A stretch of 7,863 nucleotides of DNA from a virus (Duplodnaviria; Heunggongvirae; Uroviricota; Caudoviricetes). Positions 709-7,863 of the stretch are shown here, in pieces. Numbering within the stretch: the first letter of the stretch is position 1; every line of letters starts with the position of its first letter. The stretch covers positions 1 to 7,863 of IMG/VR virus record IMGVR_UViG_2802429226_000012; one strand, 5' to 3'. A program made the position numbers and the translations under genes. The notes under the pieces were generated by a model, which saw only the letters and a list, made by a program, of their open reading frames with translations, searched no databases and was not told the origin of the DNA.

Positions 709-3700
709 ATGGGCAAAGGAAGCAGTAAGGGGCATACCCCGCGCGAAGCGAAGGACAACCTGAAGTCCACGCAACTGCTGAGTGTGATTGATGCCATCAG
801 CGAAGGGCCGATTGAAGGTCCGGTGGATGGATTAAAAAGCGTGCTGCTGAACAGTACGCCGGTGCTGGACAGTGAGGGGAATACCAATATCTCCGGCGTC
901 ACGGTGGTGTTCCGGGCAGGCGAGCAGGAGCAGTCACCGCCGGAGGGATTTGAATCCTCCGGTTCCGAGACGGTGCTGGGTACGGAAGTGAAATATGACA
1001 CGCCGATCACCCGCACCATTACGTCGGCAAACATCGACCGTCTGCGCTTTACCTTCGGTGTACAGGCACTGGTGGAAACCACCTCAAAGGGTGACAGGAA
1101 TCCGTCGGAAGTCCGTCTGCTGGTTCAGATACAGCGTAACGGTGGCTGGGTGACGGAAAAAGACATCACCATTAAGGGCAAAACCACCTCGCAGTATCTG
1201 GCCTCGGTGGTGGTGGGTAACCTGCCGCCGCGCCCGTTTAATATCCGGATGCGCAGGATGACGCCGGACAGCACCACAGACCAGCTGCAGAACAAAACGC
1301 TCTGGTCGTCATACACCGAAATCATCGATGTGAAACAGTGCTACCCGAACACGGCACTGGTCGGCGTGCAGGTGGACTCGGAACAGTTCGGCAGCCAGCA
1401 GGTGAGCCGTAATTATCATCTTCGCGGGCGCATTCTGCAGGTGCCGTCGAACTATAACCCGCAGACGCGGCAATACAGCGGTATCTGGGACGGAACGTTT
1501 AAGCCAGCATACAGCAACAACATGGCCTGGTGTCTGTGGGATATGCTGACCCATCCGCGCTACGGCATGGGGAAGCGTCTCGGTGCGGCGGATGTGGACA
1601 AATGGGCGCTGTATGTCATCGGCCAGAATTGCGACCAGTCGGTGCCGGACGGCTTTGGCGGCACGGAGCCGCGCATCACCTGTAATGCGTACCTGACCAC
1701 ACAGCGCAAGGCGTGGGATGTGCTCAGTGATTTCTGCTCGGCGATGCGCTGTATGCCAGTATGGAACGGGCAGACGCTGACGTTCGTGCAGGACCGACCG
1801 TCGGATAAGGTGTGGACCTATAACCGCAGTAATGTGGTGATGCCGGATGATGGCGCACCGTTCCGCTACAGCTTCAGCGCCCTGAAAGACCGCCATAATG
1901 CCGTTGAGGTGAACTGGATTGACCCGAACAACGGCTGGGAGACGGCGACAGAGCTTGTGGAGGATACGCAGGCCATTGCCCGTTACGGTCGTAACGTCAC
2001 GAAGATGGATGCTTTTGGCTGTACCAGCCGGGGGCAGGCACACCGCGCCGGGCTGTGGCTGATTAAAACAGAACTGCTGGAAACGCAGACCGTGGACTTC
2101 AGCGTGGGGGCGGAAGGGCTTCGCCATGTACCGGGCGATGTCATTGAAATCTGCGATGATGACTATGCGGGTATCCGCATCGGCGGGCGCGTGCTTGCGG
2201 TAAACAGCCAGACCCGGACGCTGACGCTCGACCGTGAAATCACGCTGCCATCCTCCGGTACCACGCTGATAAGCCTGGTTGACGGAAGTGGCAATCCGGT
2301 CAGCGTGGAGGTTCAGTCCGTCACCGACGGCGTGAAGGTAAAAGTGAGCCGTGTTCCTGACGGTGTTGCTGAATACAGCGTATGGGGGCTGAAGCTGCCG
2401 ACGCTGCGCCAGCGTCTGTTCCGCTGTGTGAGTATCCGTGAGAACGATGACGGTACGTATGCCATCACTGCCGTGCAGCATGTACCGGAGAAAGAAGCCA
2501 TCGTGGATAACGGGGCGCACTTTGACGGCGACCAGAGTGGCACGGTGAATGGTGTCACGCCGCCAGCGGTGCAGCACCTGACTGCCGAAGTCACCGCAGA
2601 CAGCGGGGAATATCAGGTACTGGCGCGATGGGACACGCCGAAGGTGGTGAAGGGGGTGAGCTTTATGCTTCGCCTGACCGTGGCAGCGGATGACGGCAGT
2701 GAGCGGCTTGTCAGCACAGCCCGGACGACGGAAACCACATACCGCTTCAGGCAACTGGCGCTGGGGAACTACAGGCTGACAGTCCGGGCAGTAAATGCCT
2801 GGGGGCAGCAGGGGGATCCGGCGTCGGTATCGTTCCGGATTGCCGCACCGGCAGCGCCTGTCACTATTGAACTGATACCGGGGTATTTTCAGATAACGGC
2901 GGTCCCGAAACTGGCTGTATATGACCCGACGGTGCAGTTTGAGTTCTGGTTCTCGGAAAAGCAGATTATTGATATCAGGCAGGTTGAAACCAGCGCGCGT
3001 TATCTTGGTACGGCGCTGTACTGGATAGCCGCCAGTAGCAATATTAAGCCGGGTTATGATTATTACTTTTATATCCGCAGCGTGAACACCGTTGGTAAAT
3101 CGGCATTTGTGGAGGCCGTCGGTCGGGCGAGCGATGATGCGGAAGGTTATCTGAATTTTTATAAAGGGTTGATCAATAAAACGCATCTCGGCAAGGAGCT
3201 ACTGGAAAACTTTGAGCTGACGGAAGATAACGCCAGCAAACTGGAGGAGTTTTCGAAAGAGTGGAAAGACGCTAACGATAAATGGAATGCCATGTGGGGC
3301 GTCAAAATTGAGCAGACCAAAGACGGCAAACATTATGTCGCGGGTATTGGTCTCAGCATGGAGGACACGGAGGAAGGCAAGCTGAGCCAGTTTCTGGTTG
3401 CCGCTAACCGTATCGCGTTTATTGACCCGGCAAACGGGAATGAAACGCCGATGTTTGTGGCGCAGGGCAACCAGATATTCATGAACGACGTGTTCCTGAA
3501 GCGCCTGACAGCCCCCACCATTACCAGCGGTGGCAGTCCTCCGGTATTTTCCCTGACATCAGACGGAAAGCTGACCGCTAAAAATGCGGATATCAGTGGT
3601 AGTGTGAATGCGAACTCAGGAACGCTCAACAATGTCACGATTAACCAGAACTGTACGATTAAGGGCATGCTGGAGGCGACCCAGGTCAGAGGGGATTTCG

Positions 3701-4122
3701 TTAAAGCTGTATCAAAAGCCTTCCCGAAAAAAGTCGGTACGTGGGGTAACACGGAAACACCAAACGGTACGGTTACAGTCACCATCAGCGATGATCATAA
3801 CTTTGACCGCCAGATTATTATTCCGCCCATTATTTTTAACGGTATAGCGTATGACGATCCGGGGAGCGGAAATAACCCAGGAGGCACGCGATACACGGGT
3901 TATGGTTTTGAAGTTCGCAAAAACGGCGTATTAATCGCATCCAGAGAAACTAAAGGGGCCATTCCCGGTAGTTACAGTGCAGTTATTGATATGCCTAGTG
4001 GTGGTGGTAGCGTCACTCTGGAGTTTAAGGTTTTCCAGAAAGGCAATCAGGGGGCAGGCAATATCACCGACTGTACGGTGATTGTGACCAAAAAAGCCGC
4101 TTCCGGTATCAGTATCCGTTGA
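709..4122 (+). CDS. J: Host specificity protein J (central tail fibre / tail tip protein) with a divergent C-terminal receptor-binding region
   Basis: 1137-aa ORF; N-terminal and central sequence ([45 protein letters not shown] ... [43 protein letters not shown]) matches my recollection of lambda J (about 1130 aa). RBS GGAG 8 nt upstream of the ATG. The last roughly 130-150 aa (from about nt 3700) are AT-richer and do not match the lambda J C-terminus as I recall it. Confidence 0.95.
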
Positions 4123-4142
4123 AATATTTATAACCCCAATAC

Positions 4143-4170
4143 GGGCGCCAGAAATGGCGCCTTTTTTATT
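4143..4170 (+). terminator. Rho-independent terminator-like hairpin immediately after J
   Basis: GGGCGCC-agaaat-GGCGCC stem-loop (4143..4161) followed by TTTTTTATTT (4162..4171), 21 nt after the J stop codon and 12 nt before the stf start. Confidence 0.55.
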
Positions 4171-4182
4171 TGTGGAGTGAGT

Positions 4183-6564
4183 ATGGCAGTACAGATTTCA
4201 GGTGTGCTGAAAGATGGTGCGGGAAAACCAATACAGAACTGCACTATTCAACTGAAGGCAAAGCGTAACAGCACCACGGTACTGGTGAACACGGTGGCCT
4301 CTGAAAATCCGGATGAAGCCGGGCGTTACAGCATTGATGTTGAGTATGGCCAGTACAGCGTTATCCTGCTGGTTGAAGGTTTTCCGCCTTCACATGCCGG
4401 GACCATTACCGTCTATGAAGGCTCCAGACCAGGTACGCTGAATGATTTTCTCGGTGCCATGACGGAAGATGATGTCATGCCGGAGGCATTGCGTCGTTTT
4501 GAGGAAATGGTGGAAGAAGCGGCACGCAACGCTGAAGCCGCCTCTCAGAGCGCAGCGGCGGCAAAGAAATCCGAAACTGCAGCGGCATCATCGAAGAATG
4601 CGGCGAAAACCTCAGAAACGAATGCAGCTAACAGCGCACAGGCGGCAGCGGCCTCGCAGACTGCATCGGCAAACTCCGCGACAGCAGCCAAAAAATCAGA
4701 AACCAACGCGAAAAACAGCGAGACAGCCGCAAAGACGAGCGAAACCAACGCAAAGTCCAGCCAGACAGCAGCGAAAACCAGCGAAACGAATGCCAAAGCC
4801 AGTGAAACTGCGGCGAAAAACAGCCAGGATGCAGCAGCCGAAAGCGAGAGTGACGCAGCTGGTTCTGCAAGTGCGGCGGCTTCTTCTGCCACTGCATCAG
4901 CCAACAGTCAAAAAGCTGCAAAAACCAGCGAAACCAACGCAAAGTCCAGCCAGACGGCAGCGAAAACCAGCGAAACGAATGCCAAAGCCAGTGAAACTGC
5001 GGCGAAAAGCAGTCAGGATGCAGCAGCCGAAAGCGAGAGTGCTGCAGCTGGCTCTGCAAGCGCGGCGGCTGCTTCTGCCACTGCATCAGCCAACAGTCAA
5101 AAAGCTGCAAAAACCAGTGAAACCAACGCAAAGGCGAGCGAGACTGCGGCGGCTAACTCGGCGAAAGCATCCGCTGCAAGCCAGACGGCTGCAAAAGCAA
5201 GTGAAGACGCAGCCAGAGAGTATGCAAGCCAGGCTGCGGAGCCGTATAAACAAGTATTGCAGCCGCTTCCCGATGTGTGGATACCGTTTAACGATTCACT
5301 GGATATGATTACGGGCTTTTCGCCGTCATATAAAAAGATTGTTATTGGTGATGATGAAATAACAATGCCTGGCGACAAGATTGTAAAGTTTAAACGCGCA
5401 TCAAAAGCAACTTACATTAATAAATCTGGTGTGCTGACAGAGGCTGCAATCGATGAACCTCGCTTTGAAAAGTATGGATTGCTGATTGAAGGGCAGCGTA
5501 CAAACCTGTTAATAAACAGCACAAATCCATCAAAGTGGAACAAGTCATCAAATATGATTTTAAATACATCAGGTGTAGATGATTTTGGTTTCCAGTACGC
5601 AAAATTCACATTAAAACCAGAAATGGTGGGGCAAACCTCAGCCATTTCTATTGTCACAGTATCTGGAAGCAAAGGATATGATGTTACCGGCGATGAAAAG
5701 TATGTAACTATCTCATGCAGGGTACAAAGTGGGACTCCAAATTTAAGATGTCGATTACGATTTGAAGAATATGATGGATCTACCTACAAATTCCTGGGTG
5801 ATGCTTACTTAAATATGACAGATTTATCGATTGATAAAACTGGCGGCGCTGCAAGTCGTATTACTGCAAGGGCTGTTAAAAATGAAGCAAGCAAATGGAT
5901 TTTCTTTGAGGCAACAATTAAGGCACTTGATACAGAAAATATGATCGGTGCGATGGTGCAATATGCACCACCAAAAGGGGGAAGCACTGGTGCAGATGAT
6001 TATATTTATGTTGCAACTCCTCAGGTCGAAGGCGGTTCGTGCGCTTCTTCGTTTATTATTACTGAGGCAACGCCAGTCACAAGAGCCAGTGATATGGTGA
6101 ATATACCAACAAATAACAATATCGGTACACCACCTTTAACATTTCTAGCTGAAGTTCATACAAACTGGAACGAAACGCCAAATGCAGCACCACGAATTTT
6201 TGATACCAGTGGTGGGAGCACAACTCCGGGTCAATATATAAGTGTTGCTATTAGTTCAACATTATTTCCTAGTGTTACGATGTACAATAAAAACGGTAGT
6301 ACAGTAGCCGCCGTATCGCCAGTATTATTTGAACAAAAATCTGTTCTTGGATTTGTTTTAAATGAATCTGGTAATGTGCATTTCGTTAGCAATGCTCAGC
6401 ATGGAACTCCTAAAACTACGGATCATGTCGGTGTTAAATCTGGTTATTTCTTCAGGATTGGTGGGCAGACTAATAGCGGCCTACGTCATCTTTTCGGTCA
6501 CATTCGTAATTTTCGTATATGGCATAAAGAATTAACCGATGCGCAAATGGGAGAGATAATATAA
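4183..6564 (+). CDS. stf: Side tail fibre protein (lambda Stf-like N-terminus; repeat-rich shaft; distinct C-terminal LamG/concanavalin-A-like receptor-binding domain)
   Basis: ORF track gives 4177..6564 from a GTG; I prefer the ATG at 4183 because the product then begins MAVQISGVLKDGAGKPIQNCTIQLKAKRNSTTVLVNTVASENPDEAGRYSIDVEYGQYSVIL, matching the lambda Stf N-terminus from memory, and GGAG at 4173..4176 is correctly spaced. Middle region has KTSETNAK-type Ala/Ser/Thr repeats. C-terminal end FGHIRNFRIWHKELTDAQMGEI resembles the C-terminal consensus of LamG-like (Laminin_G_3) domains (F-G-x-I-D-E-V-R-I-Y-N-R-A-L-S-x-x-E-I). Stop TAA 6562..6564. Confidence 0.85.
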   Translation: MAVQISGVLKDGAGKPIQNCTIQLKAKRNSTTVLVNTVASENPDEAGRYSIDVEYGQYSVILLVEGFPPSHAGTITVYEGSRPGTLNDFLGAMTEDDVMPEALRRFEEMVEEAARNAEAASQSAAAAKKSETAAASSKNAAKTSETNAANSAQAAAASQTASANSATAAKKSETNAKNSETAAKTSETNAKSSQTAAKTSETNAKASETAAKNSQDAAAESESDAAGSASAAASSATASANSQKAAKTSETNAKSSQTAAKTSETNAKASETAAKSSQDAAAESESAAAGSASAAAASATASANSQKAAKTSETNAKASETAAANSAKASAASQTAAKASEDAAREYASQAAEPYKQVLQPLPDVWIPFNDSLDMITGFSPSYKKIVIGDDEITMPGDKIVKFKRASKATYINKSGVLTEAAIDEPRFEKYGLLIEGQRTNLLINSTNPSKWNKSSNMILNTSGVDDFGFQYAKFTLKPEMVGQTSAISIVTVSGSKGYDVTGDEKYVTISCRVQSGTPNLRCRLRFEEYDGSTYKFLGDAYLNMTDLSIDKTGGAASRITARAVKNEASKWIFFEATIKALDTENMIGAMVQYAPPKGGSTGADDYIYVATPQVEGGSCASSFIITEATPVTRASDMVNIPTNNNIGTPPLTFLAEVHTNWNETPNAAPRIFDTSGGSTTPGQYISVAISSTLFPSVTMYNKNGSTVAAVSPVLFEQKSVLGFVLNESGNVHFVSNAQHGTPKTTDHVGVKSGYFFRIGGQTNSGLRHLFGHIRNFRIWHKELTDAQMGEII
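4726..5150 (+). repeat. In-frame tandem direct repeat, 189-bp unit (63 aa), about 2.2 copies, inside the stf shaft region; built from shorter roughly 42-bp (14-aa) sub-repeats
   Basis: gaaaccaacgcaaagtccagccagac occurs at 4741..4766 and 4930..4955; aaaaccagcgaaaccaacgcaaag at 4921..4944 and, with one mismatch, at 5110..5133 (offsets of 189). Copies are near-identical over most of the unit. Encoded repeat is AKTSETNAKSSQTAAKTSETNAKASETAAK[N/S]SQDAAAESES[D/A]AAGSASAAA[S/A]SATASANSQKA. Confidence 0.85.
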
Positions 6565-6845
6565 TGCGAGATTTAATTATCAAATTCACAGACAAGGCCG
6601 ACTTTTCGGCCTTTATGGATAGCATTGGTTATGACGATGACGAGGTGATGCAGAACAATGTTCTCATTGACGTGATAGGTAACGTGTATAAAGAAACCGG
6701 AGAACTGACTGAAGATGGCGAACCGGTATGTGTTAAGGAAGACGGATATTTTGTAAATGTGCGCATCATTAATGATGTGAAAACACCGTCAATGTTCGAT
6801 GAATACGCGGTTGTTGTTGAGCATCAACTTCGTGGCTGGATGTGA
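6564..6845 (+). CDS. Small strongly acidic protein of unknown function, translationally coupled to stf; occupies the position of a tail-fibre assembly gene but is not recognisably Tfa-like
   Basis: 93-aa ORF; ATG at 6564 overlaps the stf stop (TAATG). GGAGAG 8 nt upstream. About 21 Asp/Glu against about 8 Lys/Arg by my count. AT-rich codon usage like the stf C-terminal domain. No similarity to lambda Tfa that I can recognise. Confidence 0.6.
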   Translation: MRDLIIKFTDKADFSAFMDSIGYDDDEVMQNNVLIDVIGNVYKETGELTEDGEPVCVKEDGYFVNVRIINDVKTPSMFDEYAVVVEHQLRGWM

Positions 6846-6854
6846 GGCAGAAAA

Positions 6855-7559
6855 ATGGCTACATCGACAGTAATTCCAGGAGATATCACCACGCTAAAGG
6901 GAGAAGTCACTAAAACTAAGGAAGATATTTCCTCAATTAACGGAAAAGTATCAACGCTTCAGACTGATATGACCAGTGCAAAGCAGGATATCAGCTCCAG
7001 ATACACAAAAACTGAAGTTGATAATAAGCTGAAAAACAAAGTGGAAGCGAACGATCTGGAAAGCGGTCGTTATGGCGGTGATTTTTACCCGCTGACAGGT
7101 CGAGAAGCGTTTTATTTATGGAATTTGGCCACGACTACAGCGGCGGCAAACCTTTATCTTAATCCTGACCCCGCAATTTCGTCTGTACTGCGGTCAACAT
7201 CGTCTATTCGCTATAAACATTCAGTAGAGACGATAGATTCAGAGCACGCCGATCTCATTTTCAAGATGCGCCCTGTGTGGTACAGGTCGCAATGCGAAAA
7301 TGACAGGCGCGATTGGGGATTCTATGGATTGATTGCCGAGGAAGTAGGAGAAATTGCCCCTCAGTTTGTTCACTGGCGACCAGCTAACGAAGATGATGCA
7401 CCGGAAACCATTTCCAGCAATGGCCTTGTTGCCGAAGGTGTAATGTACGAACGTCTGGTTGTTCCACTGATTCACCATATCCAGAAACTGACTGAAAGAG
7501 TTGATGAACTTGAGTCAGAATTAAAGTTGTTATTAACTTCCCGAAGCGATATTGGATAA
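6855..7559 (+). CDS. Short tail-fibre-like protein with C-terminal peptidase S74 intramolecular chaperone (endosialidase-chaperone type) autoproteolytic domain
   Basis: 234-aa ORF. N-terminal half has fibre-shaft-like motifs (ITTLKGEVTKTKEDISSINGKVSTLQTDMTSAKQDISSRYTKTEVDNKLKNKVEANDL). C-terminal half (SSIRYKHSVETIDSEHADLIFKMRPVWYRSQ ... DWGFYGLIAEEVGEIAPQFV ... GLVAEGVMYERLVVPLIHHIQKLTERVDELESELKLL) fits the Peptidase_S74 consensus (S-D-x-x-L-K-E-N-I ... R-P-V-x-Y ... G-F-I-A-Q-E-V ... Y-x-x-L-V-P-L-L-I-x-A-I-K-E-L). Ser116 and Lys121 are spaced as in the catalytic Ser-Lys dyad. Confidence 0.8.
   Translation: MATSTVIPGDITTLKGEVTKTKEDISSINGKVSTLQTDMTSAKQDISSRYTKTEVDNKLKNKVEANDLESGRYGGDFYPLTGREAFYLWNLATTTAAANLYLNPDPAISSVLRSTSSIRYKHSVETIDSEHADLIFKMRPVWYRSQCENDRRDWGFYGLIAEEVGEIAPQFVHWRPANEDDAPETISSNGLVAEGVMYERLVVPLIHHIQKLTERVDELESELKLLLTSRSDIG
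7200..7556 (+). other. Peptidase S74 / intramolecular chaperone domain within the 6855..7559 CDS; predicted autocleavage at Ser116 (codon 7200..7202) with Lys121 (codon 7215..7217)
   Basis: Motif alignment to the S74 family consensus as described for the parent CDS; the S-x-x-x-x-K spacing matches the Ser/Lys dyad arrangement described for endosialidase C-terminal chaperone domains. Confidence 0.7.
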
Positions 7560-7569
7560 AGGAGGAGTC

Positions 7570-7863
7570 ATGGATATAACACCTTTCCTTCACGCGCTTT
7601 GTGCTGTGGCTGCGCAGGTACTGGTTGGTCTTTTTACCGGAAACTGGGCTTACGGGGCGATAGCCGGTTGTACATTCTTCATTGCGCGGGAACACACCCA
7701 GGCAGAATATCGCTGGATTGAAATGTTCGGGCATGGCAAGCGGATTAACATGCCGTGGTGGGGCGGTTTTGATCCACGTGCATGGGATGTGGCAAGCCTG
7801 ATGGATTTTGCTGTGCCGGTGGTGGCGTGTCTGCTGGTCTGGCTGTTGGTTAATCGCGGGTGA
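7570..7863 (+). CDS. Small predicted inner-membrane protein (2-3 hydrophobic segments), function unknown; possible moron or accessory gene
   Basis: ORF track starts at a TTG (7552) that overlaps the upstream stop; I prefer the ATG at 7570, preceded by a strong SD (AAAGGAGGAG, 7558..7567). 97-aa product with hydrophobic stretches FLHALCAVAAQVLVGLFTGNWAYGAIAGCTFFIA and FAVPVVACLLVWLLV. GC-rich, unlike the two upstream genes. Stop TGA at 7861..7863, the last codon of the window. Confidence 0.55.
   Translation: MDITPFLHALCAVAAQVLVGLFTGNWAYGAIAGCTFFIAREHTQAEYRWIEMFGHGKRINMPWWGGFDPRAWDVASLMDFAVPVVACLLVWLLVNRG

What the first reader, a model, noticed from the sequence alone, without database searches (positions are those of the whole stretch)
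6855..7559. Unusually short (234 aa) fibre-like protein with a peptidase-S74 self-cleaving chaperone domain
S74 intramolecular chaperone domains normally sit at the C-terminus of large trimeric fibres or tailspikes (endosialidases, T5 L-shaped fibre) and are removed by Ser-Lys autoproteolysis after folding. Here the domain follows only about 115 residues of fibre-shaft-like sequence, so the mature product would be a roughly 115-aa trimeric stub. It could be a minimal adaptor or decoration fibre, a trans-acting folding template for the neighbouring Stf tip, or the 3-prime remnant of a longer fibre gene truncated by recombination. Predicted catalytic residues are Ser116 (7200..7202) and Lys121 (7215..7217).
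Basis: partly seen in the sequence, partly recalled or inferred. Interest (0 to 1): 0.65.

Follow-up and report, generated by a model that had tools for sequence, protein, structure and literature searches.

The report
Short self-cleaving side-tail-fibre tip subunit
A small, very common prophage gene encodes a minimal tail-fibre piece with its own cut-off folding domain; it most likely plugs onto the end of the phage's side tail fibre, and it is real but an ordinary member of a known class.

Summary
Window 6855..7559 (+) is an intact 234-aa gene. Residues 116-234 are a peptidase-S74 intramolecular chaperone (IMC) domain: the Pfam match is above its cut-off, the fold matches solved IMC structures, and Ser116/Lys121 are invariant.

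It is not a truncated remnant. It has its own ribosome-binding site, both halves are under purifying selection, and an intact copy of the same 705-nt span occurs in 740 of 5426 complete E. coli genomes, including E. coli B/BL21. Full-length 57-60% identical copies (about 225-231 aa where annotated) sit in lytic T1-like phages.

It is the third gene of a mobile three-gene lateral-fibre cassette: a proximal fibre with lectin-like end, a 93-aa protein, then a distal protein. All distal proteins start with the peptide M[AV]TxT[VIN]IPxDIxxLK. Known alleles are 221-234, 343-351 and 574-586 aa. The 574-aa one (IrisVonRoten Gp24) has been modelled by others as attached to the proximal fibre. Phage 21 and relatives lack the third gene, which argues against a role as trans-chaperone for Stf.

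Best reading: the shortest allele of a distal or branch fibre subunit, consisting of docking peptide, five-heptad coiled coil, small beta tip and self-cleaving IMC. Attachment, cleavage and receptor are inferred, not shown. Interest is modest.

The parts
4177..6564 (+). Stf-like proximal side tail fibre (795 aa from GTG 4177; the real start is probably ATG 4183). It has a lambda-type N-terminal anchor, an Ala-rich repeat shaft, and a distal part resembling the RcGTA head-spike fibre plus a LamG/ConA-like lectin.
   Evidence: PF08400 E 8e-67. NCBIfam GTA_spike_fiber at residues 436-637. PDB 6tb9 head spike fibre. Its KarlJaspers homologue has a sub-threshold Laminin_G_3 match (E 2.9e-4, 21.4 bits against a cut-off of 27.6). 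It is 45-48% identical to the lateral fibres of KarlJaspers, IrisVonRoten Gp22 and phage 21.
6564..6845 (+). 93-aa protein of unknown function, the conserved second gene of the cassette. Its start overlaps the stf stop.
   Evidence: phrog_1361 E 2e-43. Homologues occur in 179 phage records, in the records listed directly at or after the lateral or side tail fibre gene. It is 49% identical to the KarlJaspers copy. The AlphaFold2 model is unreliable, pLDDT 52.
6844..6847 (+). Shine-Dalgarno-like GAGG, 7 nt upstream of the ATG at 6855.
   Evidence: Read from the sequence. No terminator-like site lies between stf and the end of the window, apart from a weak one inside stf.
6855..7559 (+). The 234-aa S74 protein itself; the stop codon is 7557-7559.
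6855..6899 (+). Residues 1-15, MATSTVIPGDITTLK: the conserved N-terminal docking peptide shared by all third-position alleles.
   Evidence: Alignments. N-termini from five phage groups. Nucleotide homology to HannyBb and ESCO3 stops at 6898. Residues 1-32 also match the N-termini of two other tail-fibre PHROGs.
6885..6992 (+). Residues 11-46: five clean heptads (a = I11 V18 I25 V32 M39 I46; d = L14 T21 I28 L35 A42), a predicted trimeric coiled-coil stalk.
   Evidence: Heptad register. Helix 9-49 in the model. Similarity to the P22 gp26 needle coiled coil, E 9e-4. Homologues differ by 7- and 14-aa in-frame indels.
7002..7022 (+). Residues 50-56, YTKTEVD: a fibre-shaft repeat motif. From here the protein is homologous to the C-terminal end of full-length Stf proteins.
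   Evidence: It aligns with the repeated YTKTEVD of DT57C LtfA. It marks the start of the 59%-identical match to Citrobacter Stf P0066.
7071..7199 (+). Residues 73-115: a short beta-rich tip segment that would become the C-terminal end of the mature fibre. T94, N99 and R113 are invariant or nearly so.
   Evidence: Conserved columns. Most distant S74 relatives begin to match at residues 81-93. pLDDT is below 50 in the monomer model; I take this to reflect a trimer-only fold, which is inference.
7197..7202 (+). Thr115-Ser116: the predicted scissile bond, with Ser116 as nucleophile at 7200-7202.
   Evidence: The T5 pb1 Thr1263-Ser1264 precedent is in PMC4690869.
7215..7217 (+). Lys121: the predicted general base of the Ser-Lys dyad.
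   Evidence: Invariant. It aligns with Lys964 of 8hqz_d and corresponds to T5 Lys1269.
7200..7556 (+). Residues 116-234: the intramolecular chaperone (peptidase S74) domain, including the long C-terminal helix 198-232.
   Evidence: PF13884. Model pLDDT about 90. Foldseek matches 7dc3, 3gud and 3gw6. dN/dS 0-0.22.
7570..7863 (+). Downstream 97-aa putative membrane protein (ATG 7570 after AGGAGG 7560-7565). It forms the 3' conserved flank of the swapped region and is not part of the fibre cassette.
   Evidence: phrog_1443. In phage 21 and relatives it directly follows the 93-aa gene. It is 93-96% identical at nucleotide level where the S74 gene body differs or is absent.

Best explanation
The gene encodes the shortest known allele of the distal (or branch) subunit of a bipartite lateral/side tail fibre. 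The fibre is specified by a mobile three-gene cassette: the distal part of the proximal fibre, ending in a lectin-like domain; a 93-aa protein; and a distal protein. Proposed mechanism, with the status of each step marked. Three chains assemble, nucleated by the C-terminal IMC domain (inferred from the family). The IMC templates the short interdigitated beta tip (residues ~73-115) and the five-heptad coiled coil (residues 11-46) (inferred). Once the trimer is correctly folded, Ser116 activated by Lys121 cuts the Thr115-Ser116 bond and the 119-residue IMC is released (inferred from invariant residues and the T5/K1F precedent). The mature ~115-residue trimer docks through its conserved N-terminal peptide onto the distal end of the Stf-like proximal fibre, possibly with the 93-aa protein involved. 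This step is inferred from synteny, from the conservation pattern, and from a published AlphaFold-Multimer model of the homologous long allele, Gp24 of IrisVonRoten. The exposed small tip would serve as a second, minimal host-contact point beside the lectin domain of the proximal fibre (speculative). What is actually shown here is the domain identity, conservation, synteny, allelic series, mosaic boundaries and selection.
For: S74 identity. Real, selected gene: dN/dS 0.15-0.42 (N-terminal half) and 0-0.22 (IMC half), with heptad-sized in-frame indels. An intact copy covering the full 705 nt is present in 740 of 5426 complete E. coli genomes. Full-length homologues of 57-60% identity occur in about 45 lytic T1-like phages. 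Cassette: the three genes are 45%, 49% and 59% identical between the window and Drexlerviridae phage KarlJaspers, in the same order. The same order is seen in Nonagvirus ESCO3 and JenP2, the T5-like IrisVonRoten and phA11, and other lambdoid phages. Docking peptide: every third-position protein begins M[AV]TxT[VIN]IPxDIxxLK, whatever follows it (221-586 aa). Nucleotide homology between the window and HannyBb or ESCO3 runs through the 93-aa gene and stops at 6898, codon 15. With HannyBb it resumes at 7570. So the body of the gene is exchanged between conserved flanks. Published model: IrisVonRoten Gp24, which has the same N-terminus and an IMC, is predicted to attach to proximal fibre Gp22 (PMC11990801). 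Gp22 is 48% identical to the window Stf, including its whole distal part. The tip+IMC module is a true fibre end: residues 50-223 are 59% identical to the C-terminus of a full-length Citrobacter Stf with PF08400, Phage_fiber_2 and S74 domains.
Against: No direct evidence for attachment, cleavage or virion incorporation was found. There is no globular receptor-binding domain between the coiled coil and the IMC, so a receptor-binding role for a ~45-residue tip is uncertain. Sequence diversity among the lambdoid copies is low (91-98% identity), unlike typical receptor-binding domains under diversifying pressure. The BASEL GenBank records call the homologue 'putative lateral tail fiber chaperone'. 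The published complex model concerns a much longer allele and is itself only a prediction. Whether the partner is the proximal fibre or the 93-aa protein is unresolved; the paper's figure legend names Gp22 and its text names Gp23. The fold of the 93-aa protein could not be predicted.
Confidence: 0.6

Rival explanations
1. Trans-acting assembly chaperone: the protein is not a virion component but uses its IMC domain to fold the neighbouring Stf (or another fibre) in trans. This is what the GenBank label 'putative lateral tail fiber chaperone' suggests.
For: The Pfam family is named 'Chaperone of endosialidase'. BASEL records annotate the homologue as a chaperone. The protein lacks an obvious receptor-binding domain. 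The IMC half is the more conserved half.
Against: Phage 21, 4A7, 3W, ev017, ev207 and Lambda_4B5 carry the homologous Stf distal part and the 93-aa gene, followed immediately by the membrane-protein gene with no third gene. The Stf type therefore exists without it. The Stf ends in lectin-like and GTA-spike-like domains, not in the triple beta-helix or tip that IMCs cap. The scissile Thr-Ser bond and the dyad are conserved, which only makes sense for a cis substrate. The N-terminal half is under purifying selection and has a fibre-like coiled coil. The same module is fused in cis to full-length Stf proteins elsewhere.
Confidence: 0.1
2. Recombination remnant: the ORF is the 3' end of a longer fibre gene, left behind when the Stf distal part was replaced, and has no function of its own.
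For: The whole protein aligns to the last ~235 positions of a 1385-position PHROG profile. It also aligns to the C-termini of 539-1243-aa proteins. A tail fibre assembly pseudogene fragment lies nearby in some prophages.
Against: It has its own SD and ATG. The N-terminal 15 residues are not from the interior of a long fibre; they are a module shared by all third-position alleles in five phage groups. dN/dS is well below 1 in both halves. An intact copy spanning the same 705 nt occurs in 740 genomes. It is retained in compact lytic T1-like genomes.
Confidence: 0.03
3. A structural cap or filler, or a fibre attached elsewhere. In one version the mature stub occupies the docking site on the proximal fibre without binding any receptor, for example stabilising the fibre end or setting the geometry of the lectin domain. 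In the other version it attaches to a different virion site as a decoration.
For: No globular receptor-binding domain is present, while the longer alleles have ~150-450 extra residues. Diversity among lambdoid copies is low. The third gene is dispensable in some phages.
Against: The tip+IMC module is also the terminal part of full-length Stf proteins, where it is the only candidate receptor-binding end. In T5 pb1 the segment directly before the IMC is the receptor-binding domain (PMC4690869). The only proteins shared by all phage groups that carry the docking peptide are the proximal-fibre distal part and the 93-aa protein, which argues against attachment elsewhere.
Confidence: 0.22

Closest known systems
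C-terminal intramolecular chaperone domains (peptidase S74) of phage T5 pb1, K1F endosialidase, GA-1/phi29 neck appendage, DT57C LtfA, and eukaryotic MyRF
   Same: Same domain family and fold, the same Ser-x4-Lys dyad, and a Thr-Ser scissile bond as in T5. The position is also the same: C-terminal to a trimeric fibre segment.
   Different: Those proteins have hundreds to more than a thousand residues before the IMC. Here there are only 115, with no beta-helical stalk of any length and no globular binding domain.
IrisVonRoten (Bas32) Gp24 'T-shaped' lateral tail fibre and its proximal fibre Gp22 (PMC11990801)
   Same: Same gene order (proximal fibre, 92/93-aa gene, distal protein). The proximal fibres are 48% identical. 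The N-terminal peptide is the same (MVTKTVIPTDITKLK versus MATSTVIPGDITTLK), and both have a C-terminal S74 domain.
   Different: Gp24 is 574 aa, with a Gp12-like and a T5-like receptor-binding domain. The window protein has neither; a coiled coil and a ~45-residue tip take their place.
343-351-aa alleles at the same locus (HannyBb, ESCO3, JenP2)
   Same: Same flanks, same docking peptide, and an S74 domain with invariant Ser/Lys.
   Different: They carry about 110 extra residues (two insertions in the alignment), probably a globular domain, and are only 26-30% identical overall.
Full-length lambdoid Stf proteins ending in the same module (Citrobacter freundii WP_418224550, 735 aa)
   Same: Residues 50-223 are 59% identical to the last ~180 residues, including the tip and the IMC.
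   Different: There the module is fused in cis to the PF08400 anchor and shaft. Here it is a separate polypeptide with a docking peptide.
Branched receptor-binding systems: DT57C LtfA/LtfB (PMC4728585) and the Klebsiella KP32-type RBP1 branching domain with RBP2 docking peptide (PMC13352976)
   Same: Same logic: a secondary fibre attaches through a short conserved N-terminal peptide to a primary fibre, so the variable part can be swapped.
   Different: No sequence relationship to those anchors was shown, and attachment in the present system is untested.
Lambda Tfa / Mu-type tail fibre assembly proteins (trans chaperones)
   Same: Encoded just downstream of stf.
   Different: Pfam, NCBIfam and PHROG searches gave no match to Tfa/Caudo_TAP families for the 234-aa or the 93-aa protein.

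Membership tests
Peptidase S74 / intramolecular chaperone (IMC) domain proteins | Significant match to PF13884 above the curated cut-off | tested here: met
   27.4 bits against 22, E 4.2e-6, residues 116-172 matching profile positions 1-57 of 58.
Peptidase S74 / intramolecular chaperone (IMC) domain proteins | Ser-x4-Lys catalytic dyad at the N-terminal border of the domain | tested here: met
   Ser116 and Lys121 are invariant in 33 sequences. They align with S959/K964 of 8hqz_d. Thr115-Ser116 corresponds to T5 Thr1263-Ser1264, with Lys1269 as partner.
Peptidase S74 / intramolecular chaperone (IMC) domain proteins | IMC fold: an alpha/beta part plus a long C-terminal helix that forms the trimeric coiled coil | tested here: met
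   AlphaFold2 residues 122-230 at pLDDT ~90, with helix 198-232. Foldseek matches 7dc3 (E 1e-5, probability 1.0), 3gud (probability 0.95) and 3gw6.
Peptidase S74 / intramolecular chaperone (IMC) domain proteins | Domain sits C-terminal to a trimeric fibre or spike segment that it helps to fold | tested here: inconclusive
   A heptad coiled coil and a conserved beta-rich segment precede the domain. The trimeric state could not be modelled; only monomer prediction was available, and residues 55-115 have pLDDT below 50.
Peptidase S74 / intramolecular chaperone (IMC) domain proteins | Autoproteolytic release of the domain after folding | not testable with these tools
   Requires expression with S116A and K121A controls.
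Distal/branch subunit of the bipartite lateral tail fibre (IrisVonRoten Gp24 type) | Encoded as the third gene after a homologous proximal fibre and the 92/93-aa gene | tested here: met
Distal/branch subunit of the bipartite lateral tail fibre (IrisVonRoten Gp24 type) | Conserved N-terminal peptide M[AV]TxT[VIN]IPxDIxxLK | tested here: met
   The mosaic boundary lies at codon 15.
Distal/branch subunit of the bipartite lateral tail fibre (IrisVonRoten Gp24 type) | One or more globular receptor-binding domains between the anchor and the IMC | tested here: not met
   Only a coiled coil and a ~45-residue tip are present. No domain hit was found and no extra folded domain appears in the model.
Distal/branch subunit of the bipartite lateral tail fibre (IrisVonRoten Gp24 type) | Physical attachment to the distal end of the proximal fibre | not testable with these tools
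   Only a published AlphaFold-Multimer model of the long allele exists.
Tfa-type trans-acting tail fibre assembly chaperones | Match to Tfa/Caudo_TAP families | tested here: not met
   No such hit in Pfam, NCBIfam or PHROGs.

The most novel reading that the evidence does not exclude
The 221-234-aa allele is a deliberately 'blank' or minimal distal subunit. After self-cleavage it leaves a ~115-residue coiled-coil stub whose job is not classical receptor binding. Instead it would cap or regulate the docking site and lectin domain of the proximal fibre. Alternatively it would present the smallest known IMC-matured adhesin tip, recognising a conserved structure such as the LPS core. Either way it would define the minimal substrate an S74 chaperone can fold, about 45 residues of interdigitated beta structure.
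Probability: 0.15. Interest if true: 0.5.

Novelty: new member of a known kind. Interest (0 to 1): 0.3.

Why it matters
The gene is in about one in seven complete E. coli genomes, including BL21, and in many T1-like phages used in the laboratory. Its labels nevertheless conflict: 'hypothetical', 'tail fiber domain-containing', 'chaperone of endosialidase', 'putative lateral tail fiber chaperone'. Placing it as the shortest allele of a swappable distal subunit, with a defined 15-residue docking peptide and defined recombination flanks, gives a concrete and testable map for engineering lambdoid and T1-like side fibres. It also offers a very small model substrate for studying IMC-assisted folding. 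It does not reveal a new kind of system.

Tried and rejected
(1) Fold of the 93-aa protein. The AlphaFold2 model built from 15 close homologues was poor (pLDDT 52), so no fold search was run. PDB sequence hits were noise.

No multimer prediction is available.

(3) Literature. No paper in the held library characterises the short protein. The BASEL papers discuss the locus and the long allele only. The RBPseg atlas excluded proteins under 300 aa and anything named chaperone. A search for virion proteomics of these phages gave nothing usable.

(4) Antisense ORFs 7239-7478 and 7384-7734 have no family match and were dismissed.

(5) Promoter and terminator scans gave counts at or below shuffled expectation. 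Only the hairpin after J is noted.

(6) dS against the T1-like copy is saturated, so selection could only be measured among the lambdoid copies.

(7) Remnant and trans-chaperone readings were considered and rejected or down-weighted, as set out under the rival explanations.

Full report
Context. The window is the tail-tip end of a lambdoid (pro)phage. It contains:
- tail assembly protein I (1-648);
- J (709-4122, seven J-specific Pfam domains);
- an Stf-like fibre (4177-6564);
- a 93-aa ORF (6564-6845);
- the 234-aa ORF in question (6855-7559);
- a small membrane-protein gene (7570-7863).
The closest phage is Escherichia phage IdasGreatGrand, 98% identical over 4903-7848. In E. coli 980-2 the same region lies beside appY-ompT-envY.

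Observation. The ORF is real and the S74 call is correct.
- PF13884 matches residues 116-172 above its gathering score.
- PHROGs give E 1.5e-138 to a family of long fibre proteins, aligned to their last ~235 profile positions.
- The best PDB sequence hit is the IMC region of DT57C LtfA (8hqz_d), with Ser116/Lys121 opposite Ser959/Lys964.
- In an alignment of 33 homologues down to 30% identity, Ser116 and Lys121 are invariant, and R113, S117, R119 and Y120 nearly so.
- The Thr115-Ser116 bond copies the scissile Thr1263-Ser1264 bond of T5 pb1, where Lys1269 activates the serine and cleavage depends on correct trimer folding (PMC4690869).
- An AlphaFold2 model has pLDDT ~90 for residues 122-230. 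Its best structural matches are the MyRF ICA domain (7dc3, E 1e-5), the GA-1 appendage IMC (3gud) and the K1F endosialidase IMC (3gw6).

Anatomy of the pre-IMC part.
- Residues 1-15 form a conserved peptide, discussed below.
- Residues 11-46 form five clean heptads: a = I11, V18, I25, V32, M39, I46; d = L14, T21, I28, L35, A42. The model makes this a helix and it resembles the P22 gp26 needle coiled coil.
- Homologues differ by exact 7-aa (PhiR55_1) and 14-aa (KarlJaspers) in-frame indels.
- Residues 50-56 are the fibre motif YTKTEVD.
- Residues ~73-115 are a conserved beta-rich segment. It is modelled poorly as a monomer, which I take to reflect a trimer-only fold (inference).

It is a functional gene, not a remnant.
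- GAGG lies 7 nt before the ATG.
- Pairwise dN/dS among five lambdoid copies is 0.15-0.42 for residues 1-115 and 0-0.22 for the IMC half.
- An intact copy covering the full 705 nt is found in 740 of 5426 complete E. coli genomes, including E. coli B and BL21(DE3). In every row listed RefSeq annotates it as 'tail fiber domain-containing protein'.
- About 45 lytic T1-like phages (Drexlerviridae) carry a homologue of about 225-231 aa (where annotated or clustered) that is 57-60% identical over residues 1-217.

The cassette. In KarlJaspers (Bas06) the lateral-fibre locus has the same three genes in the same order, 45%, 49% and 59% identical to the window proteins. The same order occurs in:
- Nonagvirus ESCO3 and JenP2;
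- the T5-like phages IrisVonRoten and phA11;
- several other lambdoid phages.
The first gene's distal part resembles the RcGTA head-spike fibre, and the cassette's proximal fibre appears to end in a LamG/ConA-type lectin. The lectin assignment rests on a sub-threshold Pfam match in the KarlJaspers homologue and on the conserved C-terminal sequence. The 93-aa gene is found in 179 phage records, in the records listed directly at or after such a fibre gene.

The third position is an allelic series. Proteins encoded there are:
- 221-234 aa (window type);
- 343-351 aa (HannyBb, ESCO3, JenP2);
- 574-586 aa (IrisVonRoten Gp24, phA11).
All begin M[AV]TxT[VIN]IPxDIxxLK. Every allele scanned against Pfam (the window type, KarlJaspers, HannyBb, ESCO3, JenP2 and IrisVonRoten Gp24) ends in an S74 domain. 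In the four-way alignment of the window, IdasGreatGrand, HannyBb and ESCO3 proteins, Ser and Lys are invariant. At the DNA level, homology between the window and HannyBb or ESCO3 runs through the 93-aa gene and stops at 6898, codon 15. With HannyBb it resumes at 7570 in the next gene. So the body of the gene is exchanged between conserved flanks.

In phage 21, 4A7, 3W, ev017, ev207 and Lambda_4B5 the 93-aa gene abuts the membrane-protein gene with no third gene. Phage 21's Stf is nevertheless 48% identical over the distal part. The third gene is therefore an optional add-on.

Link to published work. The second BASEL paper models IrisVonRoten Gp24 as a T-shaped fibre with a Gp12-like and a T5-like binding domain and an IMC. 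In that model it attaches to the proximal fibre Gp22, whose C-terminus carries a protruding galectin-like domain (PMC11990801). Gp22 is 48% identical to the window Stf, including all of its distal part. Gp24 shares the N-terminal peptide. The window protein is therefore the minimal allele of that distal subunit.

The earlier BASEL records labelled the short homologue 'putative lateral tail fiber chaperone'. No paper in the held library studies it.

The tip+IMC module is a genuine fibre end. Residues 50-223 are 59% identical to the C-terminus of a 735-aa Citrobacter prophage Stf that has PF08400, Phage_fiber_2 and S74 domains. Similar matches occur in proteins of 539-1243 aa. Most distant relatives begin to match at residues 81-93, so the last 25-35 mature residues travel together with the IMC.

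Interpretation. Best-supported (confidence ~0.6): a short trimeric distal or branch subunit. It folds with the help of its own IMC, cleaves itself at Thr115-Ser116, and docks by its N-terminal peptide onto the distal end of the Stf-like fibre, possibly with the 93-aa protein involved. Domain identity, conservation, synteny, the allelic series and the mosaic structure are shown. Trimerisation, cleavage, attachment and any receptor are inferred.

The rival readings are weaker:
- The trans-chaperone reading is weakened by phages that have the fibre without this gene, by conservation of the cis scissile site, and by selection on the N-terminal half.
- The remnant reading is contradicted by the data.
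- A non-binding cap or filler role remains possible, because the protein lacks a globular binding domain and varies little.

Novelty and score. S74-matured fibres, branched fibres with N-terminal docking peptides (DT57C LtfA/LtfB, PMC4728585; KP32-type RBP2, PMC13352976) and this very locus architecture are all known. Short S74 proteins recur in databases. This is a new, uncharacterised but very common member of a known kind. It is of practical interest for fibre engineering and as a minimal IMC substrate, but it is not surprising. Interest 0.3.

Noticed in passing
window 4725-5151: The Stf shaft contains a 189-nt tandem repeat (2.3 copies, 92% matches) with nested 21/42-nt units encoding AAKTSETNAK-like Ala-rich repeats. 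Homologues differ in shaft length here.
   Followed up: partly
window 4177-4185: The mechanical ORF starts at GTG 4177. The Pfam PF08400 match and the phage 21 Stf N-terminus (MAVQISG) both indicate ATG 4183 as the real start.
   Followed up: partly
window 7552-7863: The downstream ORF is listed from TTG 7552, overlapping the S74 stop. AGGAGG at 7560-7565 followed by ATG 7570 gives a 97-aa protein that matches phrog_1443 end to end. Its phage 21 homologue is annotated as a membrane protein with two transmembrane segments. It is 93-96% identical at nucleotide level in many lambdoid phages whatever lies upstream; function unknown, possibly a moron or exclusion gene.
   Followed up: partly
window 4143-4162: A terminator-like GC-rich hairpin with a T-run lies between J and stf, at the same place as the annotated terminator in phage 21. 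The side-fibre operon would then need read-through or its own promoter.
   Followed up: no
window 4123-4176: There is no lom gene between J and stf, unlike IdasGreatGrand, E. coli 980-2 and PhiR55_1, which have a 600-nt lom there. HannyBb lacks it too.
   Followed up: no
window 6564-6845: The 93-aa protein (phrog_1361) is much more widespread than the S74 gene: 179 phage records spanning lambdoid, T1-like, T5-like, Dhillonvirus, Queuovirinae and rV5-like phages. It sits directly after a lectin-ended lateral fibre gene. It has no family annotation and no predictable fold (pLDDT 52). It may be the fibre's chaperone or connector.
   Followed up: partly
L011 (KarlBarth) 3770-4649: In this Dhillonvirus the third position holds a 98-aa ORF with the docking peptide, followed by an overlapping 196-aa ORF whose C-terminus is a non-S74 tail-fibre end. 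This is either a split gene or a two-part allele, and it shows that not all third-position alleles use an IMC.
   Followed up: partly
L005 10384-10494; L007 6439-6573: Short pseudogene fragments of a Tfa-type tail fibre assembly gene lie a little downstream of the cassette in some prophages. They look like scars of an earlier lambda-type stf-tfa arrangement that the cassette displaced.
   Followed up: no
L009 (phage 21) 4677-8126: Phage 21 carries a sitABCD iron/manganese transporter operon immediately after the membrane-protein gene, a cargo locus at the position where the window ends.
   Followed up: no
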